Origin: Candidatus Hydrogenedentota bacterium
GTDB lineage: Bacteria; Hydrogenedentota; Hydrogenedentia; Hydrogenedentales; SLHB01
Direction of reading: 5' to 3'
Assembly (NCBI GenBank): GCA_029552745.1
Contig: JAKPDK010000167.1
Location: 73,973 to 137,972, forward strand
Length of the DNA: 64,000 nucleotides
Shown: positions 23,611 through 35,250 of the stretch, piece by piece
How the letters are laid out: every line of letters starts with the position of its first letter
How positions within the stretch are numbered: position 1 is the stretch's first letter
Made by a program: the position numbers and the translations under genes
The notes under the pieces: model-generated
Seen by the model: the letters and a program-made list of their open reading frames with translations, nothing else
The model's database searches: none
Told to the model about the DNA's origin: nothing

Positions 23611-24159
23611 ATGAACCAACCTAACACCTTGTCAGAAAAGACCTTACAAACCGATGTCCCCACCGGACCCCCTACCGGTGCCCTCGCCGAAGCCGGTAAA
23701 TACTTGACATTCCGACTCGGCGAAGAGACCTTCGGATTGCCCATCCTTAAGGTCCAGGAGATCATCGGCATGATGCCCGTCACCGCGGTACCCCGCGTGC
23801 CCTCGTACGTACGCGGCGTCATCAACCTCCGCGGCAAGGTCATCCCCGTCATTGACCTGCGGCTCAAGTTCGGGCTAGAAGGCAAAGAGGACACCACCCG
23901 CACCTGCATCATCGTCCTCCAGGTCGCCGCCGGCCGCGGCAACGTCGTCATGGGCACCATCGTTGACGAGGTATCCGAGGTGGTCAATGTCGCCCAAAAC
24001 CAGATCGAGCCCGCCCCATCGTTTGGGGCGTCCCTCGACACCGAGTTCATCCTCGGCATGGGGAAGATCGGCGACAAGGTCGTCATGCTCCTCGATGTCG
24101 ACCGCGTCCTCTCCGCCGGCGAAATCGCTACTTTAAACCGTCTGGAAACCAGTGTATAA
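23611..24159 (+). CDS. cheW: chemotaxis coupling protein CheW
   Basis: AGGAGG SD; CheW-domain motifs LTFRLGEETFGLPILKVQEI, VINLRGKVIPVIDLR. Confidence 0.85.
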   Translation: MNQPNTLSEKTLQTDVPTGPPTGALAEAGKYLTFRLGEETFGLPILKVQEIIGMMPVTAVPRVPSYVRGVINLRGKVIPVIDLRLKFGLEGKEDTTRTCIIVLQVAAGRGNVVMGTIVDEVSEVVNVAQNQIEPAPSFGASLDTEFILGMGKIGDKVVMLLDVDRVLSAGEIATLNRLETSV

Positions 24160-24205
24160 AAGGCGTGGAAACCATTTCACCAATCGAAAAGGAGGATTCC
24201 AAACA

Positions 24206-26232
24206 ATGTTTACCAACATGGGATTGCGGGCGAAGTTAATGGGTGGGTTTATTATTGTGGCGGTGTTCACCTGCGCCGTGGGCATCATCGGCTACTGGGG
24301 GGTCTCCCGACTCGCCGGAGACATCCGCGAGATCGGAGAAGTCCAATTGCCCAGTGTCCACAGTCTGAAAGAGATTAAGACGCAAGTTATCTCAATCTCT
24401 AAAGAGCTGGCGGCGTTGACGAACCCGCGGGCAACGGTGCAAGACCGGAAACAGTCACTTGATAACATCGGTAAGGCGAGAGAAAAGTACCAGGCGGCAT
24501 GGAAGGTATATGAACCGCTTCCTCGAGAAACTGAAGAAGATCAAGTTTGGCAACAATTTAAGCCTGCTGTGGATGCTTGGGAAGAAACAAACAATCAATT
24601 CATGAATCTTGCGAATGAGCTGAACGCGCTGGGCATTGAGAATCCGGTTGCCATTGAACGGGACATACAGAAGTTTCGCGGAGACCACCATGTGTTGATG
24701 GGCAAGGTTCAAGACCTGCTCCTTGCCGGAACGACATTTGAGGGTGGGGAAGACCCGACTCAGTGCAATTTCGGCAAATGGTTGGCGCAATTCAGAACAG
24801 ACAACCCCGAAATCCAACGGGCGCTCAGTGAGATCCGGGAGTTCCATCAGTACTTTCACCACACAGTCCCGGTTATTCGAGAAGCGGTCGCACGCAATGA
24901 CAAAGACGCCGCGAGGAAACAATTCGAGGAGGTGATGCGTACTGCGGCGACGCACACCTTCGAACAATTTGAGCCAAGATCAATGCCGAGCTCGAAAAGG
25001 CTGTCGGTACTTATGACAAGATGTACGATCAATTCAAGAATGCTGTCGAACCCAAACAACAAGCGGCGTTGGAATTGCTAGACAAACTACTCGCTATCGA
25101 CGTCAAAGGGTCGGAGGAGGCGCGGAACCAGGCTCAAAGCGAGGCACGTCTTGCCAAAGTGTTATCGGTTGGGGGACTGGTTATAGGCACATTGCTTGCC
25201 CTTCTCTTCGGCATCTTGTTGAGCTCTTCCATCAGCAAAGCGCTCAACAAAGTCATTGCGGGGTTGAGCCAAGGGGCGGAGCAGGTGAATGCGGCGGCAT
25301 CCCAAGTGGCGCAATCCAGCCAGGCGATGGCTGCCGGCGCCAGCGAACAAGCCTCGTCGTTGGAAGAGACCTCTGCCTCGTTGGAGGAAATGGCTTCCAT
25401 GACCCGCCAGAACGCCGATAACACCAACCAGATCAACTCGTTAATGCAGGAAGCGAAACAATTCGTCGTCGAGGGCATGCAACGGATGGAAGAGATGAAT
25501 GCTGCCATCGCCGAGATACGACGGTCTGCGGATGACACGGCGCGAATTGTGAAGACCATCGACGAGGTGGCGTTCCAGACCAACCTGCTTGCCTTGAACG
25601 CGGCAGTCGAAGCCGCCCGTGCTGGGGATGCCGGAAAAGGCTTTGCCGTGGTTGCCGAGGAGGTGCGCAACCTCGCACAACGCAGCGCCGAAGCCGCCAA
25701 AAACACCGCTCAACTTATCGAAAACGCCCAAAAGAATGCCGAGAACGGCGTGCAAGTCACTGCGGACCTAGCCGCGGCGCTCAAACGCATCGAGGAAAGC
25801 TCTTCGAAAGTTGCCTCGTTGGTCGGAGAGGTGAACGCGGCAACCAACGAGCAGGCGCAAGGCATCGACCAGATCAACACCGCCGTTGCCCAGATGGACA
25901 AGGTCACTCAAGCTGCTGCGGCAAATTCCGAAGAAGCCGCGTCGGCAAGCGAGGAGTTGTCCGCCCAGGCGCGCGAATTGAACGATATGGTCGCCGTGCT
26001 CTCGCAAATCGTCGGCGGCAAAGCGGCGGCAAGCGGCACCAATGCAGGGACGCGTTCCCGCACCCCTGTCCGGACCGCCTCGCACGGTACGGGACATGGC
26101 GCGGCGGCGTTACCCCATGCGGCAACCGCCGGTACCAAGGCGCTTGCCACTAAGTCCGCGGCTGCCCCGCGCAAGGTAGTTGACCCCGAGCAGGTTATCC
26201 CTTTGGAAGACGATGACCTGAAACAGTTTTAG
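24206..26232 (+). CDS. methyl-accepting chemotaxis protein with periplasmic 4HB + CZB (zinc-binding, CxFGKW...H) sensor; reading frame broken near 24970-24976 (frameshift; pseudogene or sequencing error)
   Basis: Two ORFs 24152-25081 and 25021-26232 together form TM1-sensor-TM2-HAMP-MCP signalling domain; inserting 1 nt in GAGCCAAG (->GAGGCCAAG) restores continuity [14 protein letters not shown]. Confidence 0.7.
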
Positions 26233-26754: not shown

Positions 26755-27606
26755 CTATTTTCCTCGGGCTGCGAGGGCGGCTTCGAGAAGGTCGACGTCT
26801 TCTTGAATCATATGGGGGTTGTCTTTGGTGAAGATACCAACACACACGGCATCGCCCGGACGGTACGCCTCGGCAACGTATTCAAAGGCTTCGTGAGGTC
26901 TATTTCTTCCAGCGGCAAGGACTTTGTAATGGATCGCCGGTGCGGGAAGCTGCTGGATAAGGGCGCACATAGCGTCGCGATCTTCGGGACCATAGCACTC
27001 GGGAATGTTATAGTCCCGGTCGGGACGTTTGGTCCGGTCACTGGGGTTGTAGTAGCTTGCCATGAAAAAATCGAGTTCCAGATTGTCCGCAGCCCATTTC
27101 AAGGTATCGGGGCGGTGCCCCGCCACGCCAGCTGCCATACCGGCGTCTTTGATCGCGCGGATAGCGCCGAAGATTTCGCGAGTTTCCCGCCGAGCTACGC
27201 GGTGGTCCATTTCTCCGCCATGGATGAAGCAGGCACGGGCCTTACCCCGGATGGCGTTGTTGACGCCGTGCATCAGGGTGCCGACGCCAGGACATTGTTG
27301 TGCAATCCAAAGGAGGTTACCGCCTTCGTTCCAATGCTCTCGCAGGGCACGAATGATAAAATTGTCAGCGCGGCCTACGTGTGCCGTGACGCCCGCCTGT
27401 TCCGCTAGCCGATAACACTCTTTGACCCGTTCCATCGTGTACCAATCCAACATTTCGGCGTCCCGCTGTATGGTGTGATGCGAATAGCCGCCAAACGGAT
27501 TGGCGCCCAATATGAACCGGCTGACAACGACTTGCCCCAACCGCACCAGTTTCGGCCGATAGTGGTGTGCCGACGGCGCTTTGACGGTGCCGGCTTGTTG
27601 CGTCAT
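26755..27606 (-). CDS. hypothetical protein (283 aa), last gene of LarA-family operon
   Basis: Start MTQQAGT overlaps upstream stop (TAATG); no recognisable motif. Confidence 0.55.
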   Translation of the reverse strand: MTQQAGTVKAPSAHHYRPKLVRLGQVVVSRFILGANPFGGYSHHTIQRDAEMLDWYTMERVKECYRLAEQAGVTAHVGRADNFIIRALREHWNEGGNLLWIAQQCPGVGTLMHGVNNAIRGKARACFIHGGEMDHRVARRETREIFGAIRAIKDAGMAAGVAGHRPDTLKWAADNLELDFFMASYYNPSDRTKRPDRDYNIPECYGPEDRDAMCALIQQLPAPAIHYKVLAAGRNRPHEAFEYVAEAYRPGDAVCVGIFTKDNPHMIQEDVDLLEAALAARGK

Positions 27607-28391
27607 TATTTTTCCACTCCGGGGAACTGTTTCAGGAATCGGATAGCCTCGGCAATGTCCGCCACCGGGTCTGCCCCGCACTCCCGTTCGATGGTCAGAT
27701 AGCCGTCGTATCCAATCTCACGAAGGGTTTCCAGATATTTGGGGAAATTCACATCGCCTTTACCCAAGGGGACTTCTTTATAACCGCCTTGTCGAGCGGA
27801 ACAGTAAATTCCGTCTTTGGCATGTGTATGCACGATGTAGGGCGCCAGATCACGCACGGCAGCAAGATGGTCATAGCCGTTCATGCACAGATTGGCAGGA
27901 TCGAAATTGACTCGTGCCCCGTCGCTGCCCACTTCGCGTAAGAACTTGGCAAGTCCCTCGCCAGATTCCAACCCCGTCTCGGTTGCAAAGCAACAATCTC
28001 GGTTTGCGGCATACTCTGCGAGTTCTTTTATCCCGTCGAGCATCGCCTCATAGGCGGCCTTTTCTTCCGGCAGCACCCCGATGTGGGTTGTCAGCACGGG
28101 GGTTTTGAGATCGACACACAAATCGAACATCTCTTTCGTACGAGCGACCCGTTCGTCCAGCTTGGCTGGATCGGCAAACCCGCCAATGTCGCCGCACAAA
28201 GCAGACCGTTCGAGCCCTAGGGACGCCATGTACGTGATCAATTCTTCTCTACCGCTTTTTGTAAGATTGCGTGGATCCAAATCATTGTTAACGATCCACA
28301 ACTGGACGCCGTGCGCGCCCAATTCTTTGGCTTTGCGCAATGCCGCACGCGTGTCCATCGGCAACGATGCTGTAATAATACCTACCTTCAT
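27606..28391 (-). CDS. sugar phosphate isomerase/epimerase, xylose-isomerase-like TIM barrel
   Basis: MKVGII start with GGTGAGGAA SD; GAHGVQLW, HTH..DG, TIM-barrel metal-site pattern of AP-endonuclease 2/xylose isomerase-like family. Confidence 0.8.
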   Translation of the reverse strand: MKVGIITASLPMDTRAALRKAKELGAHGVQLWIVNNDLDPRNLTKSGREELITYMASLGLERSALCGDIGGFADPAKLDERVARTKEMFDLCVDLKTPVLTTHIGVLPEEKAAYEAMLDGIKELAEYAANRDCCFATETGLESGEGLAKFLREVGSDGARVNFDPANLCMNGYDHLAAVRDLAPYIVHTHAKDGIYCSARQGGYKEVPLGKGDVNFPKYLETLREIGYDGYLTIERECGADPVADIAEAIRFLKQFPGVEK

Positions 28392-28495
28392 TTCCTCACC
28401 CTTTCTAATCGCTTGGAGGCGGACGCCTCGAACACCCACCTATCGTAAAGCCGGATCATGCCACCAGGCCAGATCCGTATGCAAAAACCTGTCGG

Positions 28496-29743
28496 TTACG
28501 ATTTCAAGCGATAGAGCACTTCACCGGCATGTTCCACTAAAAGCATGCCTTCGTGTTCCTTATCCCGCCAATCTTCGGGGTTGATGGTCGACGGATCGCG
28601 ATAGCCTAGATTGATGGATTCGCAGACATCGCGCGGGATTTGAGTGGCTAAGGTAACTTGTATCCTCGGCTTTTCAACGCCATTTTCGAACGTGCCAATG
28701 CCTCGGACATGCGTTGAATGCGCCAAGATTCCCCCGGGAACATCACGAAACTTATCCATTTGCGCCAGGAAATAATCGCGGGTGTGGTACCCGATACGCC
28801 GGATCAGTTTACCATGCGTGTAACTGATCTCCGAGATGTGCGGCGCATAGATGATAAGTTCGCCACCATCCGCTACCACAGGTTCCAGTTTATACATACA
28901 CTTCCCCGCCACCCAGATATCGTCGTACATTTCCGGCGCCATTGCCAACACACTGCGGTAGGGTTTTTCTTTGTAAACGATGTGGGTTTGTGCGGAAAGA
29001 TCGGCAGCGACACTCCAAGCCTCTTCCGGTTCCCCGTAAAAGATGCCGTGTGTCCGAGAGCCGGATACATTGAGACAAAAACATCGTTTCTCCAAGTGAA
29101 TCATCGATGCTGCTTTATCGATCACGGCACGAACCGGGGTATGTTTTGTGCCGTTGATGACCGGATTGGTGATCAAGGCGCCGAGCCAGTGAAACAAGTT
29201 CAGAATTTCGGCTCCTGCCACCCCGGGGAAGAAATACTTGTTGCCGCCGCTAAAGCCCACCACTTCATGTGGGAAAACGGGTCCCACGAGAATGACCCTG
29301 TCGTAATCAAATATCCGTTTGTTTACCAACACAGCGGCTTTTTGGCGCATCAACCCGTTGGAAAGTTCGGCGATCTCATCGGCTTCTATGGTACCGATGT
29401 GTTGGAGCCTATCGAGGTTTTGCCATTCGTGATTGAAAATGTTTACGGCGGCATAACGGGTGTTGCGTTCCTCCTGGTTTACGCCGATGAGACGATTGAT
29501 AGCATCTTCCGGCATAGGGGGATGCGTGCCCAAGGCGATCAAAAAATCTACGGCTTCCGCACGTCGTTCCGTCGCGGCGACCAGCGCCCGAAACATCGCG
29601 GGCATGGGCATACTGCGCGTACTATCGGGAATGATAAACAACAGACGTTTGCGGTCTATTGATTCATGCGCCAGCGCCTCATTTACAAAGTCAGCGATAT
29701 CCTCTTCGCTCAACGGCTGTTGAAGATTTACGTGTTGCATCAT
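28496..29743 (-). CDS. LarA-family protein (nickel-pincer-nucleotide-dependent 2-hydroxyacid racemase/epimerase homolog, DUF2088)
   Basis: IIPDSTRSMP (DxTRP), ALGTHPPM, PHEVVGFSGGNKY motifs; 415 aa length as in LarA. Confidence 0.7.
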   Translation of the reverse strand: MMQHVNLQQPLSEEDIADFVNEALAHESIDRKRLLFIIPDSTRSMPMPAMFRALVAATERRAEAVDFLIALGTHPPMPEDAINRLIGVNQEERNTRYAAVNIFNHEWQNLDRLQHIGTIEADEIAELSNGLMRQKAAVLVNKRIFDYDRVILVGPVFPHEVVGFSGGNKYFFPGVAGAEILNLFHWLGALITNPVINGTKHTPVRAVIDKAASMIHLEKRCFCLNVSGSRTHGIFYGEPEEAWSVAADLSAQTHIVYKEKPYRSVLAMAPEMYDDIWVAGKCMYKLEPVVADGGELIIYAPHISEISYTHGKLIRRIGYHTRDYFLAQMDKFRDVPGGILAHSTHVRGIGTFENGVEKPRIQVTLATQIPRDVCESINLGYRDPSTINPEDWRDKEHEGMLLVEHAGEVLYRLKS

Positions 29744-29753
29744 GACCCGATCC

Positions 29754-30926
29754 TCACTTGTGTGGACGCAGCCCGTCCTGTCGCGTACAGATAAACCCCA
29801 GACGCGTGAGAGCCCTCTCTAATTCTGGGTTTGACGGTTCGACGATCGCCCGTGTCAGGATAAACTCCCGACGACGCGGATACTGTTTCCTTAGCTTATC
29901 AAAATAAGCCCCGCGCCGCTCGGGCGGTTCCGCCAAAATACCTCGCATCGCTGCATCGTCCTTGCGCACATCGTACACCGCAAAAACCGCTTTCTGAATC
30001 TCGGACAACCAGTCCGACGCTGCGCCATTCAATCGCACCTCCGGACATTCCGGGGGCGGCAACAACGGCGACGGATCCCACGTGGGCTCTTTTCCCAAGA
30101 AACGACAAGCGGCTTCGTAAATCTGTCGTGTCCCGTTTACTTTACCGTCAAACGAATAGCCCGCAATGTGAGGCGTTCCAATGGACGCCCGTTCCAAAAG
30201 CGTTACGTCGATGTCCGGTTCCCGATCCCAGACATCAAGAACACACGCTTGAATCCGGCCACTGTCCAATGCGGCTTTTAGCGCCTGCTCCTCCACCACA
30301 GGTCCCCGCGAGCTATTGATGAAAATCGCGCCGAGCTTCAACTTTTCGAAAAATGGTCTGTTCGCCAGCCGATACGTAGCGTCTTCACCGTCTCGAGTCA
30401 GGGGTACATGCAGCGTAATAATATCGCATGCCAAGGCCTCCTCTAGGGGACGGTACACGGCGTCGCCGGTCTTGCGCGCTAACGGCGGATCGTTCAAGAC
30501 GCACGTTAGTCCCAAGCCTTCGGCTTTCCGGCGAACGTTACTACCCACATTACCAACTCCGATAATCCCTAGCGACATTTTCGGCAAATCCAGTGCAAAT
30601 CTCTCAGACAAGACCATCAAAGCAGAGACAATATAGTCCCCTACGCTATTGGCGTTGCACCCGGGCGCGCTGGCAAATCCGATACCGTGTTCCTGAAGGT
30701 ATGCCTTGTCCACATGGTCTTCACCGATCGTTGCCGAAGCGACGAATCTCACCCCCGTCCCCTCCAACAACGCCCGGTTCACTCGAGTAATGGAACGCAC
30801 CAACAGCATGTCCGCATCGCGCAGGCATTCTGACGTGATGGCGCGCCCACTCAACGTTTTGACGTTGCCGAGAGATTCGAAGGCTTCCCGGACATACGGG
30901 ATATTTTCATCTGCAATAATGTTCAT
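29754..30926 (-). CDS. pdxB: 4-phosphoerythronate dehydrogenase-like D-2-hydroxyacid dehydrogenase (PdxB family)
   Basis: MNIIADENIPYVREAF..LLVRSITRVN..GVRFVASATIGEDHVD closely parallels PdxB N-terminus; NAD Rossmann GIIGVGNVG; catalytic His in GTPHIAGYS. Confidence 0.75.
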   Translation of the reverse strand: MNIIADENIPYVREAFESLGNVKTLSGRAITSECLRDADMLLVRSITRVNRALLEGTGVRFVASATIGEDHVDKAYLQEHGIGFASAPGCNANSVGDYIVSALMVLSERFALDLPKMSLGIIGVGNVGSNVRRKAEGLGLTCVLNDPPLARKTGDAVYRPLEEALACDIITLHVPLTRDGEDATYRLANRPFFEKLKLGAIFINSSRGPVVEEQALKAALDSGRIQACVLDVWDREPDIDVTLLERASIGTPHIAGYSFDGKVNGTRQIYEAACRFLGKEPTWDPSPLLPPPECPEVRLNGAASDWLSEIQKAVFAVYDVRKDDAAMRGILAEPPERRGAYFDKLRKQYPRRREFILTRAIVEPSNPELERALTRLGFICTRQDGLRPHK

Positions 30927-30952
30927 CGGCGTTGGTTAGCGGACGTTTATCG

Positions 30953-31852
30953 CTATCTCTTCCACGGAGGTACTTCCGGAAGATACCGCTCAAACTCTTT
31001 CAAAAGGCCTGCTTCGTACTCTTCCGTGTACGCGCCCGCGAAAAACTTGTCCAGAGCCTCTTCGTACAACCGCTGCCAAGATGTCTCCTCGTCGCCCGGA
31101 TTGATGGGATAGAAGAAGGCGCCGTTTGCACGAGCCGCTTTTAAGTCACCGTAGGCGTCGCCTATCATCAGCATATTCTTCTTCTCATATCGGCCTTCCG
31201 AGGCATAGGCGATGTGCTGCGCTTTTGTGCCCATTTCTTGTCCCGCGATGGCAAACACATACTTTGCCAAATCTTGCTCCTGCCACTCCCGCACCAGGGC
31301 TTCCGTAGGGGTCTGTGAACACACCAGTAGATCGGCGTGCTGCTTGGCTTTCTCCAGGCTTTCCCGTACAAACGGAAACGGAGGCAACCCTTTGTCCACG
31401 ATGTCCGCTACCGTGGCATTCACGGCTTTGCTCCATTTCAACGTACGGTGCATATCCGGCTCGTCATGTTCTTTACAGTATGCCTCAAGAGCCGGGTTGC
31501 CCAGCTTCGTTTCTGTCTTTATCCAGCGGCGAAGATTGGGCACCTCCGGCAAACGGAACCCGCGCTGCTTCACCTTGTCCCAATCGGCGAGCAGGTCAAA
31601 CGTACGAACCAACGCAGGAAACCGGTTTTCACCGCGCCACTTCGAGTATAGGTTCACAAATTCCGCCGCGGCACGGGCGTATTTGGAAATGGGCTGTAAT
31701 TCCCAATGCTTGATGATGTTGGGGATGAAACACTCTTTCTGTTTAATCTCCATCGTATCGAAGGCGCATCCATCCGAGTCAATGGCAATGAAATACTCGT
31801 GCTGTGGTTTGTGTTCTTTCAGTACTGCTGTGGGATCGCTCATGGTTCTCAT
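30953..31852 (-). CDS. HAD-superfamily hydrolase/phosphatase
   Basis: Motif I IAIDSDGC, motif IV GDAYGD. Confidence 0.7.
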   Translation of the reverse strand: MRTMSDPTAVLKEHKPQHEYFIAIDSDGCAFDTMEIKQKECFIPNIIKHWELQPISKYARAAAEFVNLYSKWRGENRFPALVRTFDLLADWDKVKQRGFRLPEVPNLRRWIKTETKLGNPALEAYCKEHDEPDMHRTLKWSKAVNATVADIVDKGLPPFPFVRESLEKAKQHADLLVCSQTPTEALVREWQEQDLAKYVFAIAGQEMGTKAQHIAYASEGRYEKKNMLMIGDAYGDLKAARANGAFFYPINPGDEETSWQRLYEEALDKFFAGAYTEEYEAGLLKEFERYLPEVPPWKR

Positions 31853-31885
31853 ACCCTTTCTGACTTCACGTTATCTCTACGTTTC

Positions 31886-32716
31886 TCATACACCCGAGAA
31901 GGCGCTGAATCCACCATCCACTGGTACCACAATCCCTGTGACAAAGCGCGAGGCATCGGAGGCAAGCCAAATCGCCGTCCCGATTAGGTCCTCCGGTTTC
32001 CCAAACTCACCCAACGGCGTATGTTGAATAATGGTTTTGCCCCGAGCCGTCAATTCTCCCGTCTTTTCATCCGTGAGAAGGTATCGGTTTTGGTCTGTCA
32101 AAAAGAACCCTGGGGCGATGGCATTCACTCGAAGCTTTGTACTGTATTCTTGAGCCAGATGTACCGCGAGCCATTGAGTAAAATTACTCACAGCGGCTTT
32201 TGCTGCGCTATAACCCGGAATGCGTGTGAGGGGACGAATTGCATTCATGGACGAAATATTAATGATTGATGCGCCGTCCGGGTTGTCTTTCATACGAGCG
32301 CAAAACACCTGCGAAGGCACAATCACGCCGCCAATAAGATTTAGATCGATCACCTTGCGCAAGGCATCGGCAGGGATATCAAAAAACGTCTGCTCGGGAG
32401 ACGTTGTTGCCGCTTTCATATTGCCCCCGACGCAATTCACCAAAATGTGAACCCCACCGAAATCAGCGTAGATGGCGTCACACGCACGAATAATTGATTC
32501 CCGCTGAAATACGTCCAGTTCGTACGGTTTCGCCGTCCCCCCTTGTGCCCGAATTTCATCGCACTTACGTGCTGCGGCATCCGGCGCCACATCGGCAATT
32601 GCCACCTGAGCGCCAGCAGAAGCCAGACCCATGGCAATCGCGCCTCCTAATACACCACCTCCACCGGTCACTACGGCTGTCTTCCCTGCTAAATGAAACA
32701 TAGAAGTCTGAGACAT
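31886..32716 (-). CDS. SDR-family oxidoreductase
   Basis: TGGGGVLG cofactor motif, YSAAK catalytic motif; AGGAG SD. Confidence 0.85.
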   Translation of the reverse strand: MSQTSMFHLAGKTAVVTGGGGVLGGAIAMGLASAGAQVAIADVAPDAAARKCDEIRAQGGTAKPYELDVFQRESIIRACDAIYADFGGVHILVNCVGGNMKAATTSPEQTFFDIPADALRKVIDLNLIGGVIVPSQVFCARMKDNPDGASIINISSMNAIRPLTRIPGYSAAKAAVSNFTQWLAVHLAQEYSTKLRVNAIAPGFFLTDQNRYLLTDEKTGELTARGKTIIQHTPLGEFGKPEDLIGTAIWLASDASRFVTGIVVPVDGGFSAFSGV

Positions 32717-33132
32717 TTTCCCCTGTTGCTCCTTTGTTGTGAACTCGTATGTGAGGTACAGCCGCTCGTAAAGGCTGCATCTCGGACTCTATCCAGTGCA
32801 CTTGGCTTTGTTAACGCGAGGGAGGAACACGTCACACCAAGTGTCCCATACTCTAGCAAACTTGGGTGCCTTTTCGCACCTTTCTGCTTTGGCAAAGGTA
32901 AGCACATAACGCCACGCTGATTGAAGAAGAGTGGGTTTCGCCGGGTATTCGAAATTGAGTCCCCGTATTTTTGGCTTAATGCCAAGCGTTTTTGAACGCG
33001 GGGTCCTGTTGAAAAGCGGCGCCATGAAGTGTACAACTAACAGAAGTTCGTCTTTCCGAATTCGACGGTTCCCGCCATAAGGCTTAGACCGTCTGAGAAG
33101 TATTTGAGTTTCGTTGAAGGCTTGTCGGGGTA

Positions 33133-35250
33133 ATGTCCACAAGAAATGAGATCGGACTGCAAACATCGAGCCACCCGCTGCTAGTTAACTGGAGGCTCTG
33201 CGGTATCTGCCTGTTCATCTGCATCGGATTGTGGAGCACCGCGGGGTCGGCAAAGAGCACGGTGTCGGATTCGGAGGCAGTTCTCCGTCTGATTTGGCAG
33301 GCAGGCAACGCAGCGACGGATGAAGAACGGCTGAATTTGCTTCTCCAACTGGCAAAACGCACGGACTTATCGCCCGCGCTCAAGGCCGATGTTTCCCGAC
33401 TTGTCCACGAGATCGAAGAATGGATTCATAATCCCGACCTACCGTATTTTTGGCGCAAGATCCGGCTGTCTGGAACATACGACTTTGGTATCGCCGAAAA
33501 ATCGCCCCTGTTCCCGATCGTACAGTTTTACCATGCGCGGATGATCGTTTGGGTCGTGTTGGAGTCTGGCGACATCTGGGGCAACCCCAACCGGCGGCGG
33601 ACCATGTTGGATAATGCGCGCGCCCTGTTTGAAGATGCGGCAGCCGCTTTCCCGGAAAACCCGGTTATCCGCATGTATCTGGGTGAACCGATCCCGCCCC
33701 GGCGCCACTATCCTGCCGTACCGGGGGCACCGGAATGGGCTGTTTATCAGCGCGAGGCGCTCGAACGATTAACAGACATCATCACGTGGTGGATCGATCA
33801 CCGGATGCAGGAGAGCGGGGCGTTTGGCGGCGGATGGGGGGACGACTGTGAGATGTGGCGATGGTGGACTCCGGTGCTGATCGGTTTCCATGACCCTAAG
33901 ATTACCGCCGCACAAGCCCGGTTCTCGCGCGCGATGTTCGAGCAAAAACACATGAAAGACGGATACACAAGCCACCTATACGACGTCGAGCACACGGCGG
34001 AAGACTCCGCGGATACCCTGACCCCGATGATGCATCTCGAGCCCGACAATCCGGAATGGAGCGCCCGCGTTCTTCGACTCGCGGACCTCATGGAGACGCT
34101 TTGGACCGGTGTGAATGAGCGCGGCATGCTTCAGTTTAAGAGCACCTATTTTAACGCGACCCGCGTGGACGACTCGCCCCGCCGTGCTTGCGATACGCCG
34201 ATGCATGTACGTGCCATGCAGCCTACTTTGTTGTATTGGCAACGTACCGGCGATGCACGACTGACTCGACTGTTCCGTGCATGGATGGATACGTGGGTAG
34301 ATGCCGCGGCACGCGCAGAACGAGGCAAGCCCGCCGGCGTTCTGCCCAGCGCCATCCACTGGCCGGATGGCCGCATCGGCGGCCTTGGTGAGAAGTGGTG
34401 GGACCCCGAAAACCACACGGAGGACCCCCTGTATGTATGGCCAAGCGCATTGAATCAGATGGCATACGCCCTGCTCCTAACCCATCATATGACAGGGGAG
34501 GACAAATATCTCGAGCCGATTCGCGTTCTGGCAGCGCTCCGCCTGCGCTATCTCACCGAAAATCCCCCCGGTCCTCTGGAAGAGGGTTCCGAGATGTGGT
34601 GTGGCTCGAAGCTAGGTCGTATCACCGGAGTAATCGCCAAGTATCGCTACCTCACCGGTGACAGAACGTTCGACGATCTGCTCCGGGGCGAAGCTAGTCC
34701 CTATGCTGCTTTTTGTTACTACGGAGAAGGCGGCGCCCTCTCGTTGGCGTTGCGAAACACGGCGGAGGCGTTGCGACTGAACTTCGAAGGTTACACGAGC
34801 GAAGTGCGGTACACAGACCGCGTGTTGCGGTTTCCCTCGTTGTTCGGTCAAAACGGCATGTACCCGGAGCCCGTAGTGTCCATCCGAGTACCGGACCCTG
34901 CCCTCTTGTACTCTACCGTCACGGGAGATATGGGAGATGCGCTCTATTTTCCCCTTAATGCGGTGCGTTGGTTGACGCCGCCCCGTGATATCGCCGCGCT
35001 GGTGACAGATTGCAGCAATGAGACCTTCGAGGCGCGGTTGTTTCACTTCGGTACAACCCCACGCCAAGTGGACGCGGAACTATATCTCTTAAAGCCGGGT
35101 TCCTATGAGTTGACCCTGCGCGAGTCGGCTTCTCCGACTACCGTTTTGACATCATCCATGTTCGAGGTATCAGGCCTCCGTTGTCGCGTATCGTTTGAGT
35201 TGCCGCCCCGTCGCCTCTGTGTCATGCGAGTCAGCCGTGTAAGCCACTGA
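33133..35250 (+). CDS. secreted hypothetical protein (705 aa), possibly alpha/alpha-toroid polysaccharide lyase/hydrolase-like
   Basis: Signal peptide; Trp-rich helical repeats; no firm family assignment. Confidence 0.55.
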   Translation: MSTRNEIGLQTSSHPLLVNWRLCGICLFICIGLWSTAGSAKSTVSDSEAVLRLIWQAGNAATDEERLNLLLQLAKRTDLSPALKADVSRLVHEIEEWIHNPDLPYFWRKIRLSGTYDFGIAEKSPLFPIVQFYHARMIVWVVLESGDIWGNPNRRRTMLDNARALFEDAAAAFPENPVIRMYLGEPIPPRRHYPAVPGAPEWAVYQREALERLTDIITWWIDHRMQESGAFGGGWGDDCEMWRWWTPVLIGFHDPKITAAQARFSRAMFEQKHMKDGYTSHLYDVEHTAEDSADTLTPMMHLEPDNPEWSARVLRLADLMETLWTGVNERGMLQFKSTYFNATRVDDSPRRACDTPMHVRAMQPTLLYWQRTGDARLTRLFRAWMDTWVDAAARAERGKPAGVLPSAIHWPDGRIGGLGEKWWDPENHTEDPLYVWPSALNQMAYALLLTHHMTGEDKYLEPIRVLAALRLRYLTENPPGPLEEGSEMWCGSKLGRITGVIAKYRYLTGDRTFDDLLRGEASPYAAFCYYGEGGALSLALRNTAEALRLNFEGYTSEVRYTDRVLRFPSLFGQNGMYPEPVVSIRVPDPALLYSTVTGDMGDALYFPLNAVRWLTPPRDIAALVTDCSNETFEARLFHFGTTPRQVDAELYLLKPGSYELTLRESASPTTVLTSSMFEVSGLRCRVSFELPPRRLCVMRVSRVSH

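What the first reader, a model, noticed from the sequence alone, without database searches (positions are those of the whole stretch)
26755..32716. Six-gene operon built around a LarA-family (NPN-dependent) racemase/epimerase homolog: candidate undescribed hydroxy-acid / sugar-acid pathway
Six minus-strand genes lie in tight array with 11-34-bp gaps and one TAATG overlap; only a 105-bp gap separates the LarA homolog from the isomerase. In transcription order they are an SDR, a HAD phosphatase, a PdxB-like D-2-hydroxyacid (4-phosphoerythronate-type) dehydrogenase, a LarA/DUF2088 homolog, a xylose-isomerase-like TIM-barrel sugar-phosphate isomerase, and an unrecognisable 283-aa protein. LarA homologs are now known to racemise or epimerise diverse 2-hydroxy acids using the nickel-pincer nucleotide cofactor, but most remain unassigned. 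The pairing with a PdxB-type dehydrogenase, a phosphatase and an OtnI-like isomerase resembles the logic of tetronate (erythronate/threonate) 4-phosphate catabolism, here with a LarA-type C2 epimerase in place of known enzymes. No larB/larC/larE cofactor genes and no kinase are visible in the window.
Basis: partly seen in the sequence, partly recalled or inferred. Interest (0 to 1): 0.72.

Follow-up and report, generated by a model that had tools for sequence, protein, structure and literature searches.

The report
GntE-type LarA cluster with pdxB
In an uncultured Hydrogenedentota bacterium, a conserved four-gene cluster joins a nickel-cofactor sugar-acid epimerase and its partner reductase (a known route for breaking down uronic acids) to a vitamin-B6-pathway dehydrogenase and a phosphatase that nothing yet explains there; the last two genes of the proposed six-gene operon are a separate module.

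Summary
The six minus-strand genes, their gaps and their domain assignments are real. They do not form one conserved unit. SDR–HAD–PdxB–LarA is conserved in order and orientation across Hydrogenedentota-like genomes. The TIM-barrel gene and the 283-aa gene occur in no other LarA locus. They recur together elsewhere as an independent pair.

The LarA homologue has every NPN-binding and catalytic residue. It also carries the published GntE signature (E, V, A, H) and is 37.5% identical to Thermotoga maritima GntE2 (PDB 4NAR), a D-mannonate/D-gluconate 2-epimerase. Its orthologues in other phyla (55–70% identical, same active-site residues) sit beside UxaC, UxaE, a D-mannonate-oxidoreductase-type SDR, an FGGY kinase and Gnd. 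The SDR/LarA pair is therefore most likely the known uronate→mannonate→gluconate→6-phosphogluconate route, not a tetronate-phosphate pathway.

PdxB shows every defining PdxB feature and looks like a genuine 4-phosphoerythronate dehydrogenase. The HAD protein is a Gph-like phosphatase of unknown substrate. Why these two lie between the SDR and LarA genes throughout the phylum is unexplained. One possibility is control of 4-phosphoerythronate, which inhibits Gnd.

The 283-aa protein is a sequence-orphan barrel with an aldo-keto-reductase-like fold. Overall this is a new variant of a known kind, of moderate interest.

The parts
31886..32716 (-). SDR, D-mannonate oxidoreductase (fructuronate reductase) type; first gene of the conserved four-gene core
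   Evidence: Pfam adh_short_C2 1.7e-43. NCBIfam NF006132 D-mannonate oxidoreductase 353.8 bits against a cut-off of 281. PDB hits 4wuv (218 bits) and 1vl8 = T. maritima TM0441 (121 bits). A homologous SDR lies directly upstream of LarA in 23 of 57 assessable non-Hydrogenedentota loci and in most Hydrogenedentota loci.
30953..31852 (-). HAD-IA (Gph/COG0546-like) phosphatase with an enlarged helical cap; substrate unknown
29754..30926 (-). PdxB, 4-phosphoerythronate dehydrogenase
   Evidence: 2-Hacid_dh_C plus DUF3410. NF001309 PdxB 442.2 bits against a cut-off of 434. 335 bits to Salmonella PdxB 3oet. The PdxB-specific residues are present: R44-S45, D146-P147-P148, R207/E236/H253, Y257 and R346. 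It lies immediately upstream of LarA in every Hydrogenedentota-like locus with enough sequence.
28496..29743 (-). LarA homologue of the GntE (hexonate 2-epimerase) branch; predicted to be NPN-dependent
   Evidence: Lar_N 3.6e-23. 4NAR (GntE2) E = 2.5e-67, 37.5% identity. NPN-binding R43/K169/H185 and catalytic D40/H74/H159/K281 are invariant. The GntE signature is E160, V161, A341, H342. Orthologues lie with UxaC, UxaE, SDR, FGGY kinase and Gnd.
27606..28391 (-). Xylose-isomerase-like TIM-barrel protein (261 aa); first gene of a separate two-gene module
   Evidence: AP_endonuc_2 1.8e-37. Best PDB hit is 3tva, of unknown function. A 104-bp gap separates it from LarA. It is absent from the other 81 LarA loci. 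A 76%-identical copy lies directly upstream of a homologue of the 283-aa protein in L086, with no LarA nearby.
26755..27606 (-). 283-aa sequence-orphan protein with an aldo-keto-reductase-like (beta/alpha)8 barrel fold
32717..33132 (.). Divergent intergenic region upstream of the SDR gene (presumed promoter region)
   Evidence: Two weak sigma-70-like matches on the minus strand, not more than in shuffled sequence. No Rfam match.

Best explanation
The locus is composite.

(1) Epimerase and reductase (known enzyme types). The SDR and the LarA homologue are the UxaD/UxuB-type fructuronate reductase and the GntE-type NPN-dependent 2-epimerase of the Thermotoga-type uronate route. D-fructuronate comes from glucuronate via UxaC, or from galacturonate via UxaC plus UxaE; both genes are encoded elsewhere. 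The SDR reduces D-fructuronate to D-mannonate. LarA inverts C2 by transient hydride transfer to the nickel-pincer cofactor, through a 2-keto intermediate, and gives D-gluconate. Gluconate is phosphorylated and then decarboxylated by Gnd into the pentose-phosphate pathway. Gnd and a PPi-PFK lie just downstream of LarA in sister genomes but not in this window.

(2) PdxB and the HAD phosphatase. A genuine PdxB and a Gph-like HAD phosphatase lie between the SDR and LarA genes and are probably co-transcribed with them. This arrangement is fixed throughout Hydrogenedentota. Their role there is inferred, not shown. My preferred reading is that they act on 4-phosphoerythronate (4PE), a side product of erythrose-4-phosphate and an inhibitor of Gnd. 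PdxB would send 4PE towards PLP and the phosphatase would hydrolyse it whenever carbon flows through Gnd.

(3) TIM barrel and 283-aa protein. These two downstream genes are an independent isomerase/reductase-like pair that happens to sit after LarA in this genome.

Shown: the family assignments, residue conservation and synteny. Inferred: the substrates, co-transcription and the 4PE link.
For: LarA:
- 231 bits and 37.5% identity to GntE2 (4NAR), the experimentally shown D-mannonate/D-gluconate epimerase.
- Signature E,V,A,H, which the literature says GntEs 'usually exhibit'.
- All NPN-binding and catalytic residues are invariant.

SDR:
- NF006132 D-mannonate oxidoreductase, above its cut-off.
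- It hits TM0441, the neighbour of GntE2.

Context in 81 orthologue loci:
- SDR in 38 loci, Gnd in 16, UxaC in 5 (600 bits), UxaE in 5 (Pfam 197 bits) and FGGY kinase in 4.
- L072 reads UxaC...SDR-LarA-FGGY-Gnd.

Same function across phyla:
- Hydrogenedentota LarAs differ from the others at only two conservative positions, S44/T and A267/S.

PdxB:
- All subfamily-specific features are present.
- PdxB-LarA adjacency is seen in 13 of 13 genome loci, in all 9 metagenome loci with PdxB at least 60% identical whose sequence reaches past the PdxB gene, and in L116 and L117.

HAD:
- Phosphatase motifs and fold.
- HAD-LarA-Gnd occurs in a Chloroflexi contig, L056.

4PE:
- 4PE inhibits 6-phosphogluconate dehydrogenase, and PPP-feeding carbon sources intoxicate proofreading mutants (abstracts of PMC6449344 and PMC12445079).

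Separate module:
-.
Against: - No uxaC, uxaE, gluconate kinase, gnd or lar cofactor genes lie in the 64-kb window, so the pathway is incomplete here.
- The LarA scores far below the only hexonate-epimerase NCBIfam model (188 bits against a cut-off of 500). It is only 37.5% identical to the characterised enzyme, so a different hexonate pair is possible.
- About half of the non-Hydrogenedentota orthologue loci (33 of 68) show no uronate-pathway neighbour. Many of those contigs are short.
- The 4PE-control idea has no direct support. PdxB may simply be the PLP-pathway gene, and Gnd is not adjacent in this genome or in its closest relative L116.
- Co-transcription is not shown. The promoter and terminator scans are uninformative.
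Confidence: 0.5

Rival explanations
1. Inherited synteny without a shared pathway. pdxB is just the housekeeping PLP-biosynthesis gene and the HAD protein is a general phosphatase. They sit beside the uronate genes in Hydrogenedentota for historical or regulatory reasons only.
For: - PdxB has all canonical features and passes the equivalog cut-off.
- PdxB homologues at 43-55% identity in other lineages stand alone, without LarA.
- The PdxB-LarA link is confined to one phylum-level clade.
- Unrelated insertions are tolerated inside the cluster: a RelB/ParE pair and an opposite-strand DUF2585 gene in L002, and up to about 5 kb in L005.
- Neighbours include other central genes, PPi-PFK and Gnd.
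Against: - Order and orientation are invariant across LarA divergence down to 55% and PdxB divergence down to 49%. Gaps are 10 bp here and there is a 4-bp overlap in L117. That is more than neutral synteny usually retains.
- PdxB-LarA stays together even where SDR-HAD are not within the ~6-10 kb of sequence held around the pair (L006, L007, L013, L090, L096, L099).
- HAD-LarA adjacency recurs in three loci of other phyla.
Confidence: 0.27
2. One new pathway in which all four core enzymes act on a single series of phosphorylated aldonic acids. For example, LarA would epimerise a 6-phospho-hexonate, PdxB would oxidise its C2, and the HAD protein would dephosphorylate it. The first reader's tetronate version belongs here: 4-phospho-D-threonate to 4-phospho-D-erythronate by LarA, feeding PdxB.
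For: - The four-gene linkage is tight and conserved.
- No sugar-acid kinase lies in the Hydrogenedentota clusters, while a phosphatase and a phospho-acid dehydrogenase do.
- D-erythronate and D-threonate are C2 epimers (established chemistry).
- Some LarA homologues epimerise 4-deoxy-tetronates (abstract of PMC11770544).
Against: - LarA active-site residues are identical to those of orthologues in classical non-phosphorylated uronate clusters with UxaC, UxaE and an FGGY kinase.
- The GntE signature is present, and characterised GntEs have a very narrow substrate range.
- The SDR is of the mannonate-oxidoreductase type.
- No DUF1537 kinase, PdxA2, OtnC or OtnI is present.
- The TIM gene invoked as OtnI-like is not part of the conserved unit.
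Confidence: 0.1
3. PdxB-LarA coupling through 2-hydroxy-acid recycling. E. coli PdxB needs 2-keto acids as co-substrates, which implies D-2-hydroxy-acid by-products. LarA would racemise those by-products.
For: PdxB uses 2-keto acids such as 2-oxoglutarate, oxaloacetate and pyruvate as co-substrates (PMC6303947). LarA homologues racemise malate, 2-hydroxyglutarate and lactate.
Against: This LarA has the GntE signature E,V,A,H. It lacks the HGR (Y,F,H/Q,T), MAR (H/Q,K) and LAR (F,F,W,E/Q) signatures. Its orthologues sit in uronate clusters without PdxB.
Confidence: 0.04

Closest known systems
Thermotoga maritima uronate cluster TM0438-TM0443: UxaE, UxaD (TM0441, PDB 1VL8), GntE2/LarAH20 (PDB 4NAR), GntK, Gnd (Rodionova 2012; Desguin 2020, PMC7583248)
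   Same: - An SDR reductase next to a LarA-family hexonate 2-epimerase.
- The same NPN-binding and catalytic residues and the same 'E-V/S' loop signature.
- Gnd close by in sister genomes.
- UxaE, UxaC and FGGY kinase next to orthologues in other phyla.
   Different: - Only 37.5% identity to GntE2, so this is a separate orthologous group found in Hydrogenedentota, PVC phyla, Chloroflexota and Acidobacteriota.
- pdxB and a HAD phosphatase are inserted between the SDR and the epimerase.
- No gluconate kinase lies in the cluster; a PPi-PFK occupies that position in sister genomes.
- No UxaE or UxaC is nearby in Hydrogenedentota.
Lactate racemase LarA of Lactiplantibacillus plantarum (PDB 5HUQ)
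   Same: The fold family (Lar_N), the Lys that tethers NPN, the His nickel ligand, and the two catalytic His residues.
   Different: The substrate-pocket residues are E,V,A,H here, not F,F,W,T as in LarA1 itself (lactate racemases in general show F,F,W,E/Q). No larBCE genes lie beside it. Sequence similarity is only marginal (E about 1e-5).
PdxB, 4-phosphoerythronate dehydrogenase of E. coli, Salmonella and P. aeruginosa (PDB 3OET, 2O4C)
   Same: 335 bits to 3OET. It has the DUF3410 dimerisation domain, the Arg-Ser motif, the D-P-P loop, the Tyr four residues after the catalytic His, and Arg346.
   Different: - The taxon: the subfamily was described as limited to gamma-proteobacteria and Bacteroidetes.
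- The gene context: it sits inside a sugar-acid cluster, not next to PLP genes.
- The NCBIfam score is only just above the cut-off.
4-phosphoerythronate proofreading phosphatases (yeast Pho13, mammalian PGP, B. subtilis CpgA)
   Same: This is a conceptual parallel only. A phosphoglycolate-phosphatase-like HAD enzyme is encoded near Gnd, the enzyme that 4PE inhibits.
   Different: No activity data exist. Pho13 and PGP are, from my own recollection rather than any result here, C2-capped HADs, whereas this protein is a C1-capped HAD-IA. CpgA is a GTPase. The link is an inference.
Tetronate catabolism (DUF1537 kinases OtnK/DtnK/DenK, OtnI, OtnC, PdxA2; Zhang et al. 2016, cited from memory)
   Same: It involves 4-phospho-tetronates, and a PdxB-type substrate is a 4-phospho-tetronate.
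   Different: None of its defining enzymes is present. The TIM-barrel protein does not match OtnI or Hyi models and is not co-conserved with the core.

Membership tests
[quoted passage not shown] | Lar_N / DUF2088 domain | tested here: met
   PF09861, 3.6e-23, 82 bits against a cut-off of 23.
[quoted passage not shown] | NPN-binding residues equivalent to LarA R75, K184 and H200 | tested here: met
   R43, K169 and H185 are invariant in 82 sequences.
[quoted passage not shown] | Catalytic residues equivalent to D72, H108, H174 and K298 | tested here: met
   D40, H74, H159 and K281 are invariant.
[quoted passage not shown] | Cofactor biosynthesis genes larB, larC and larE in the genome | not testable with these tools
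   None lies in the 64-kb window. The rest of the genome could not be scanned.
GntE branch (D-gluconate/D-mannonate 2-epimerases, LarAH groups 18-20 and relatives) | Specificity residues E, V, A, H at the LarA1 positions F175, F176, W358 and T359 | tested here: met
   E160, V161, A341 and H342. The rule comes from PMC11770544.
GntE branch (D-gluconate/D-mannonate 2-epimerases, LarAH groups 18-20 and relatives) | Full-length similarity to a characterised GntE | tested here: met
   4NAR (GntE2): E = 2.5e-67, 37.5% identity over 397 aligned residues.
GntE branch (D-gluconate/D-mannonate 2-epimerases, LarAH groups 18-20 and relatives) | Gene context of uronate/gluconate catabolism | tested here: met
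   The SDR of mannonate-oxidoreductase type is in the window. UxaC, UxaE, FGGY kinase and Gnd lie next to orthologues.
GntE branch (D-gluconate/D-mannonate 2-epimerases, LarAH groups 18-20 and relatives) | D-mannonate to D-gluconate activity | not testable with these tools
   This needs an enzyme assay with NPN.
NCBIfam NF052594 (LarAH group 18 putative hexonate epimerase) | Score above the equivalog cut-off of 500 bits | tested here: not met
   188 bits. It is a relative of that group, not a member.
PdxB (4-phosphoerythronate dehydrogenase subfamily of the 2HADHs) | NCBIfam equivalog cut-off | tested here: met
   NF001309: 442.2 bits against a cut-off of 434, which is marginal. NF011966: 357 bits against 687, not met.
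PdxB (4-phosphoerythronate dehydrogenase subfamily of the 2HADHs) | C-terminal dimerisation domain with the substrate-binding Arg | tested here: met
   DUF3410, 62.5 bits. R346 lies in the LRKQY motif.
PdxB (4-phosphoerythronate dehydrogenase subfamily of the 2HADHs) | Arg-Ser phosphate motif, D-P-P cofactor loop, and the conserved Tyr after the catalytic His | tested here: met
   R44-S45, D146-P147-P148 and H253/Y257.
PdxB (4-phosphoerythronate dehydrogenase subfamily of the 2HADHs) | Pathway partners (epd, serC, pdxA, pdxJ) in the genome | not testable with these tools
   None was recognised in the window Pfam lists.
Tetronate (erythronate/threonate) catabolic pathways | DUF1537 four-carbon acid-sugar kinase | tested here: not met
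   Absent from the Pfam lists of the whole window.
Tetronate (erythronate/threonate) catabolic pathways | OtnI/Hyi-type 2-oxo-tetronate isomerase | tested here: not met
   The TIM protein scores 18 bits on TIGR03234 against a cut-off of 353. Its best hit is a ribulose-5-P 3-epimerase model at 39 bits.
Tetronate (erythronate/threonate) catabolic pathways | PdxA2-type decarboxylating dehydrogenase or OtnC | tested here: not met
   Not in the window.
HAD superfamily phosphatases (subfamily IA) | Motif I DxD, motif II S/T, motif III K, motif IV GDxxxD | tested here: met
   D25/D27, S179/T181, K210 and D232/D236 are invariant in A2.
HAD superfamily phosphatases (subfamily IA) | Rossmannoid core with a helical C1 cap | tested here: met
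Aldo-keto reductases (for the 283-aa protein) | The fold | tested here: met
Aldo-keto reductases (for the 283-aa protein) | Aldo_ket_red sequence family and the D-Y-K-H tetrad | tested here: inconclusive
   No Pfam hit and no PDB sequence hit, even with a profile. The tetrad could not be mapped. R79 and H129 are invariant, and D49 and Y56 nearly so.

The most novel reading that the evidence does not exclude
PdxB and the Gph-like HAD phosphatase form a dedicated pair that clears 4-phosphoerythronate. It is hard-wired into the operon of a Gnd-dependent uronate/gluconate route to protect 6-phosphogluconate dehydrogenase from its inhibitor. This would be a metabolite-proofreading module embedded in a catabolic operon. 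In the same clusters, a PPi-PFK homologue may replace the missing gluconate kinase.
Probability: 0.2. Interest if true: 0.6.

Novelty: new variant of a known kind. Interest (0 to 1): 0.38.

Why it matters
- **Annotation of a large orthologous group.** LarA homologues of this group were found in at least 599 species-level genomes of Hydrogenedentota, Planctomycetota, Verrucomicrobiota, Chloroflexota and Acidobacteriota, and are mostly annotated 'DUF2088' or 'lactate racemase'. They can now be given a concrete, testable function: GntE-type mannonate/gluconate epimerase in uronate catabolism.
- **Carbon use by an uncultured phylum.** This helps in reading the metabolism of Hydrogenedentota, which are common in anaerobic digesters.
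- **An open point.** Why pdxB and a phosphatase are fixed inside this cluster across a whole phylum is unexplained. If they act on 4-phosphoerythronate, this would be the first operon-encoded link between a catabolic route and protection of Gnd.
- **A new protein family.** The 283-aa protein defines an unannotated family with an aldo-keto-reductase-like fold.

Tried and rejected
- **OtnI-like reading of the TIM gene.** Rejected: no OtnI/Hyi model match, and the gene is not co-conserved with the core.
- **One six-gene operon.** Rejected as a conserved unit.
- **Second, non-homologous phosphatase.** An IMPase-type gene lies next to LarA in 11 Planctomycetota loci. It is almost certainly HisN (265.7 bits against a cut-off of 275), so I did not use it as evidence for a phosphatase requirement.
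- **LarA recycling D-2-hydroxy acids made by PdxB.** Rejected on the specificity signature.
- **Riboswitch or other RNA element in the cluster and upstream region.** None found.
- **Promoter and terminator scan.** Counts are no higher than in shuffled sequence, so it is not informative about operon structure.
- **Sequence and profile searches of the 283-aa protein against PDB.** Nothing. Only the fold search gave an answer.
- **HAD protein against PDB by sequence.** Nothing.
- **Resources that were unavailable.** The Rodionova 2012 paper (PMC4505799) was not held, so its content is cited through PMC7583248 and from memory. The afdb50 fold library was not available.
- **PPi-PFK as a substitute gluconate kinase.** Not examined beyond family assignment.

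Full report
**Observation**

The window carries six co-directional minus-strand ORFs:
- SDR, 31886-32716;
- HAD-like, 30953-31852;
- PdxB-like, 29754-30926;
- LarA-like, 28496-29743;
- AP_endonuc_2 TIM barrel, 27606-28391;
- a 283-aa protein, 26755-27606.

The gaps are about 33, 26 and 10 bp. A 104-bp gap with a Shine-Dalgarno-like GGTGAGGA precedes the TIM gene. The last two genes share a TAATG overlap.

The 283-aa protein has no hit in Pfam, NCBIfam or PDB sequences. The same DNA is on JGI contig 3300009712 Ga0116165_1000001. Close homologues are named Candidatus Hydrogenedentes. Pfam lists for the rest of the 64 kb show no larB/C/E, gluconate kinase, uxaC, gnd, pfk, DUF1537 or pdxA.

**The LarA homologue**

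Its best solved relative is 4NAR, at E = 2.5e-67, 231 bits and 37.5% identity over 397 aligned residues. According to PMC7583248, 4NAR is T. maritima GntE2/LarAH20, an experimentally shown D-mannonate/D-gluconate 2-epimerase. True lactate racemases match only at about 1e-5 to 1e-6.

The residues that bind NPN in LarA are R75, K184 and H200. The catalytic residues are D72, H108, H174 and K298. Their equivalents here are R43, K169, H185 and D40, H74, H159, K281. All are invariant in 82 orthologues.

PMC11770544 states that GntEs 'usually exhibit E, V, A and H' at the four specificity positions. This protein has E160, V161, A341 and H342. It scores 188 bits on the NCBIfam 'NPN_18_hexonate' model, whose cut-off is 500. 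It is therefore a sister group of the described hexonate epimerases, not a member of group 18.

**Neighbourhoods of LarA orthologues**

The best 80 loci are 55-70% identical. They come from Hydrogenedentota, Planctomycetota, Verrucomicrobiota, Chloroflexota, Acidobacteriota and Armatimonadota-type bins.

I called ORFs, compared them with the six window proteins, and clustered all neighbours within 7 kb. I annotated cluster representatives with NCBIfam and Pfam. The result:

| Neighbour of LarA | Loci | Note |
|---|---|---|
| Homologous SDR | 38 | Directly upstream, same strand, in 23 of 57 assessable non-Hydrogenedentota loci |
| Gnd | 16 | TIGR00873, 780 bits |
| HAD protein | 13 | 10 Hydrogenedentota-like, 3 in other phyla |
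| PdxB | 13 | |
| PPi-PFK | 13 | NF010675, 375 bits |
| UxaC | 5 | NF002794, 600 bits |
| UxaE | 5 | PF16257, 197 bits |
| FGGY kinase | 4 | |

Locus L072 (Chloroflexia) reads UxaC...SDR-LarA-FGGY kinase-Gnd. L028 reads UxaE-SDR-LarA-UxaC. This is the gene set of the T. maritima uronate route (UxaE, UxaD = TM0441, GntE, GntK, Gnd). PMC7583248 credits that route to Rodionova et al. 2012.

The window SDR passes the D-mannonate oxidoreductase model, at 354 bits against a cut-off of 281. It also hits TM0441 (PDB 1VL8) among its best solved relatives.

**Is the Hydrogenedentota LarA a different enzyme?**

No. I compared 14 Hydrogenedentota-type sequences, which have PdxB as a neighbour, with 68 others. 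Only two positions are group-specific, and both are conservative (S44/T and A267/S). Every inspected active-site position is identical. This is the main argument against a tetronate-phosphate or other new substrate for LarA in this cluster.

**What is and is not conserved with LarA**

- *PdxB.* PdxB lies immediately upstream of LarA in all 13 Hydrogenedentota-like genome loci. Three of these are labelled Nitrospiraceae or Elusimicrobia. The same holds in L116 and L117.
- *The view from PdxB.* It also holds in every metagenome locus where PdxB is at least 60% identical and the contig extends far enough. PdxB homologues at 43-55% identity never have LarA beside them.
- *SDR-HAD.* These precede PdxB in most loci. 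They are not found within the sequence held around the pair (about 6-10 kb upstream) in L006, L007, L013, L090, L096/97 and L099.
- *Downstream genes.* Sister genomes continue with PPi-PFK, Gnd, a different 302-aa TIM barrel and a glyoxylate-reductase-like 2HADH.
- *The window's TIM and 283-aa genes.* They are found in none of the 81 loci.
- *The separate pair.* In L086, a 76%-identical TIM gene directly precedes a homologue of the 283-aa protein with no LarA nearby. Other homologues of the 283-aa protein stand alone or follow a URO-D-like gene.
- *The closest relative.* L116 (LarA 83% identical) has exactly SDR-HAD-PdxB-LarA, then genes on the other strand.

The 'six-gene operon' is therefore a conserved four-gene core plus an independent two-gene module. 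Read-through transcription in this genome remains possible. No terminator-like site lies in the 104-bp gap.

**PdxB**

It scores 442 bits on NF001309 (cut-off 434) and 335 bits against Salmonella PdxB 3OET. The 2HADH review PMC6303947 lists the features specific to the PDXB subfamily:
- an Arg-Ser phosphate motif;
- an Asp followed by two prolines in the cofactor loop;
- a conserved Tyr near the catalytic His;
- a C-terminal dimerisation domain that supplies a substrate-binding Arg.

All are present: R44-S45, D146-P147-P148, H253/Y257, DUF3410 and R346, plus the R207/E236/H253 triad. I therefore treat it as an authentic 4-phosphoerythronate dehydrogenase. The review gives the subfamily's range as gamma-proteobacteria and Bacteroidetes, so Hydrogenedentota extends that range.

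**HAD protein**

The protein is the most conserved of the cluster, at 69-73% identity where LarA is 61-70%. It also lies next to LarA in three loci of other phyla, including HAD-LarA-Gnd in L056.

**Why PdxB and a phosphatase sit here**

This is not settled. Established literature says two things:
- 4-phosphoerythronate, made adventitiously from erythrose-4-phosphate, inhibits 6-phosphogluconate dehydrogenase.
- Carbon sources that feed the pentose-phosphate pathway intoxicate mutants that cannot remove it (abstracts of PMC6449344 and PMC12445079).

A uronate-to-gluconate-to-Gnd route is exactly such a condition. Co-expression of a 4PE dehydrogenase and a 4PE-type phosphatase would therefore make sense. 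This is inference only.

The plain alternative is that pdxB is the PLP gene and has been kept beside larA by inheritance. The data do not exclude it, and I give it about 0.27. A unified phospho-aldonate or tetronate pathway gets about 0.1, because the LarA and SDR evidence points elsewhere.

**The 283-aa protein**

The protein is thus a sequence-orphan AKR-like family. Its 308 detected homologues are, where named, almost all from Hydrogenedentota. Whether it keeps an AKR-type catalytic tetrad is unclear.

**Verdict**

There is a genuine, NPN-competent LarA homologue in a conserved cluster with a PdxB-type dehydrogenase and a phosphatase. However, the epimerase and its SDR belong to an already described kind of pathway, and two of the six genes do not belong to the unit.

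What is new:
- the orthologous group itself, which is large and unannotated;
- the phylum-wide embedding of pdxB and a HAD phosphatase;
- the orphan AKR-like family.

Interest is moderate.

Noticed in passing
window 26755-27606 (-); L085-L089: The 283-aa protein defines a family absent from Pfam and NCBIfam, found almost only in Hydrogenedentota (308 homologues). It has a confidently predicted aldo-keto-reductase-like barrel but no sequence similarity to any AKR. It pairs with a 261-aa AP_endonuc_2 gene here and in L086.
   Followed up: partly
window 24152-25081 (+) and 25021-26232 (+): A chemoreceptor appears split into two overlapping ORFs: a 4HB_MCP/TarH + CZB sensor part and an MCPsignal part. 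This may be a frameshift, a sequencing error, or a genuinely split MCP.
   Followed up: no
L002, L003, L005-L013, L032, L037, L117 (downstream of LarA): In most Hydrogenedentota relatives (11 of the 13 loci of the genome scan, and L117) a PPi-dependent phosphofructokinase homologue lies downstream of LarA, directly after it in several. In Chloroflexi and Verrucomicrobia loci an FGGY (gluconate/xylulose-type) kinase sits in that position. No gluconate kinase is seen in these clusters.
   Followed up: partly
L020, L029, L034, L038, L045, L051, L052, L064, L066, L068, L080: In 11 Planctomycetota loci a HisN-like inositol-monophosphatase-family gene (TIGR02067, 266 bits, just under its cut-off) lies directly downstream of the LarA orthologue.
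   Followed up: partly
window 29754-30926 (-): A PdxB with all subfamily features occurs in Hydrogenedentota. The 2HADH classification paper describes the PDXB subfamily as confined to gamma-proteobacteria and Bacteroidetes.
   Followed up: partly
window 33133-35250 (+): A 705-aa ORF with no Pfam or NCBIfam match is transcribed divergently from the SDR gene. It is not found next to LarA in any other locus.
   Followed up: no
L009 3775-6305 and 14033-14899: In one Hydrogenedens genome the cluster is flanked by metal-transport genes: ZnuA/ABC/ABC-3 upstream and a ZIP transporter downstream. Whether this relates to nickel supply for the LarA cofactor is unknown.
   Followed up: no
L002 8297-8766: A RelB/ParE toxin-antitoxin pair is inserted between the HAD and PdxB genes in a 6.6-Mb genome. 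An opposite-strand DUF2585 gene lies between the SDR and HAD genes. The cluster therefore tolerates insertions without losing its order.
   Followed up: no
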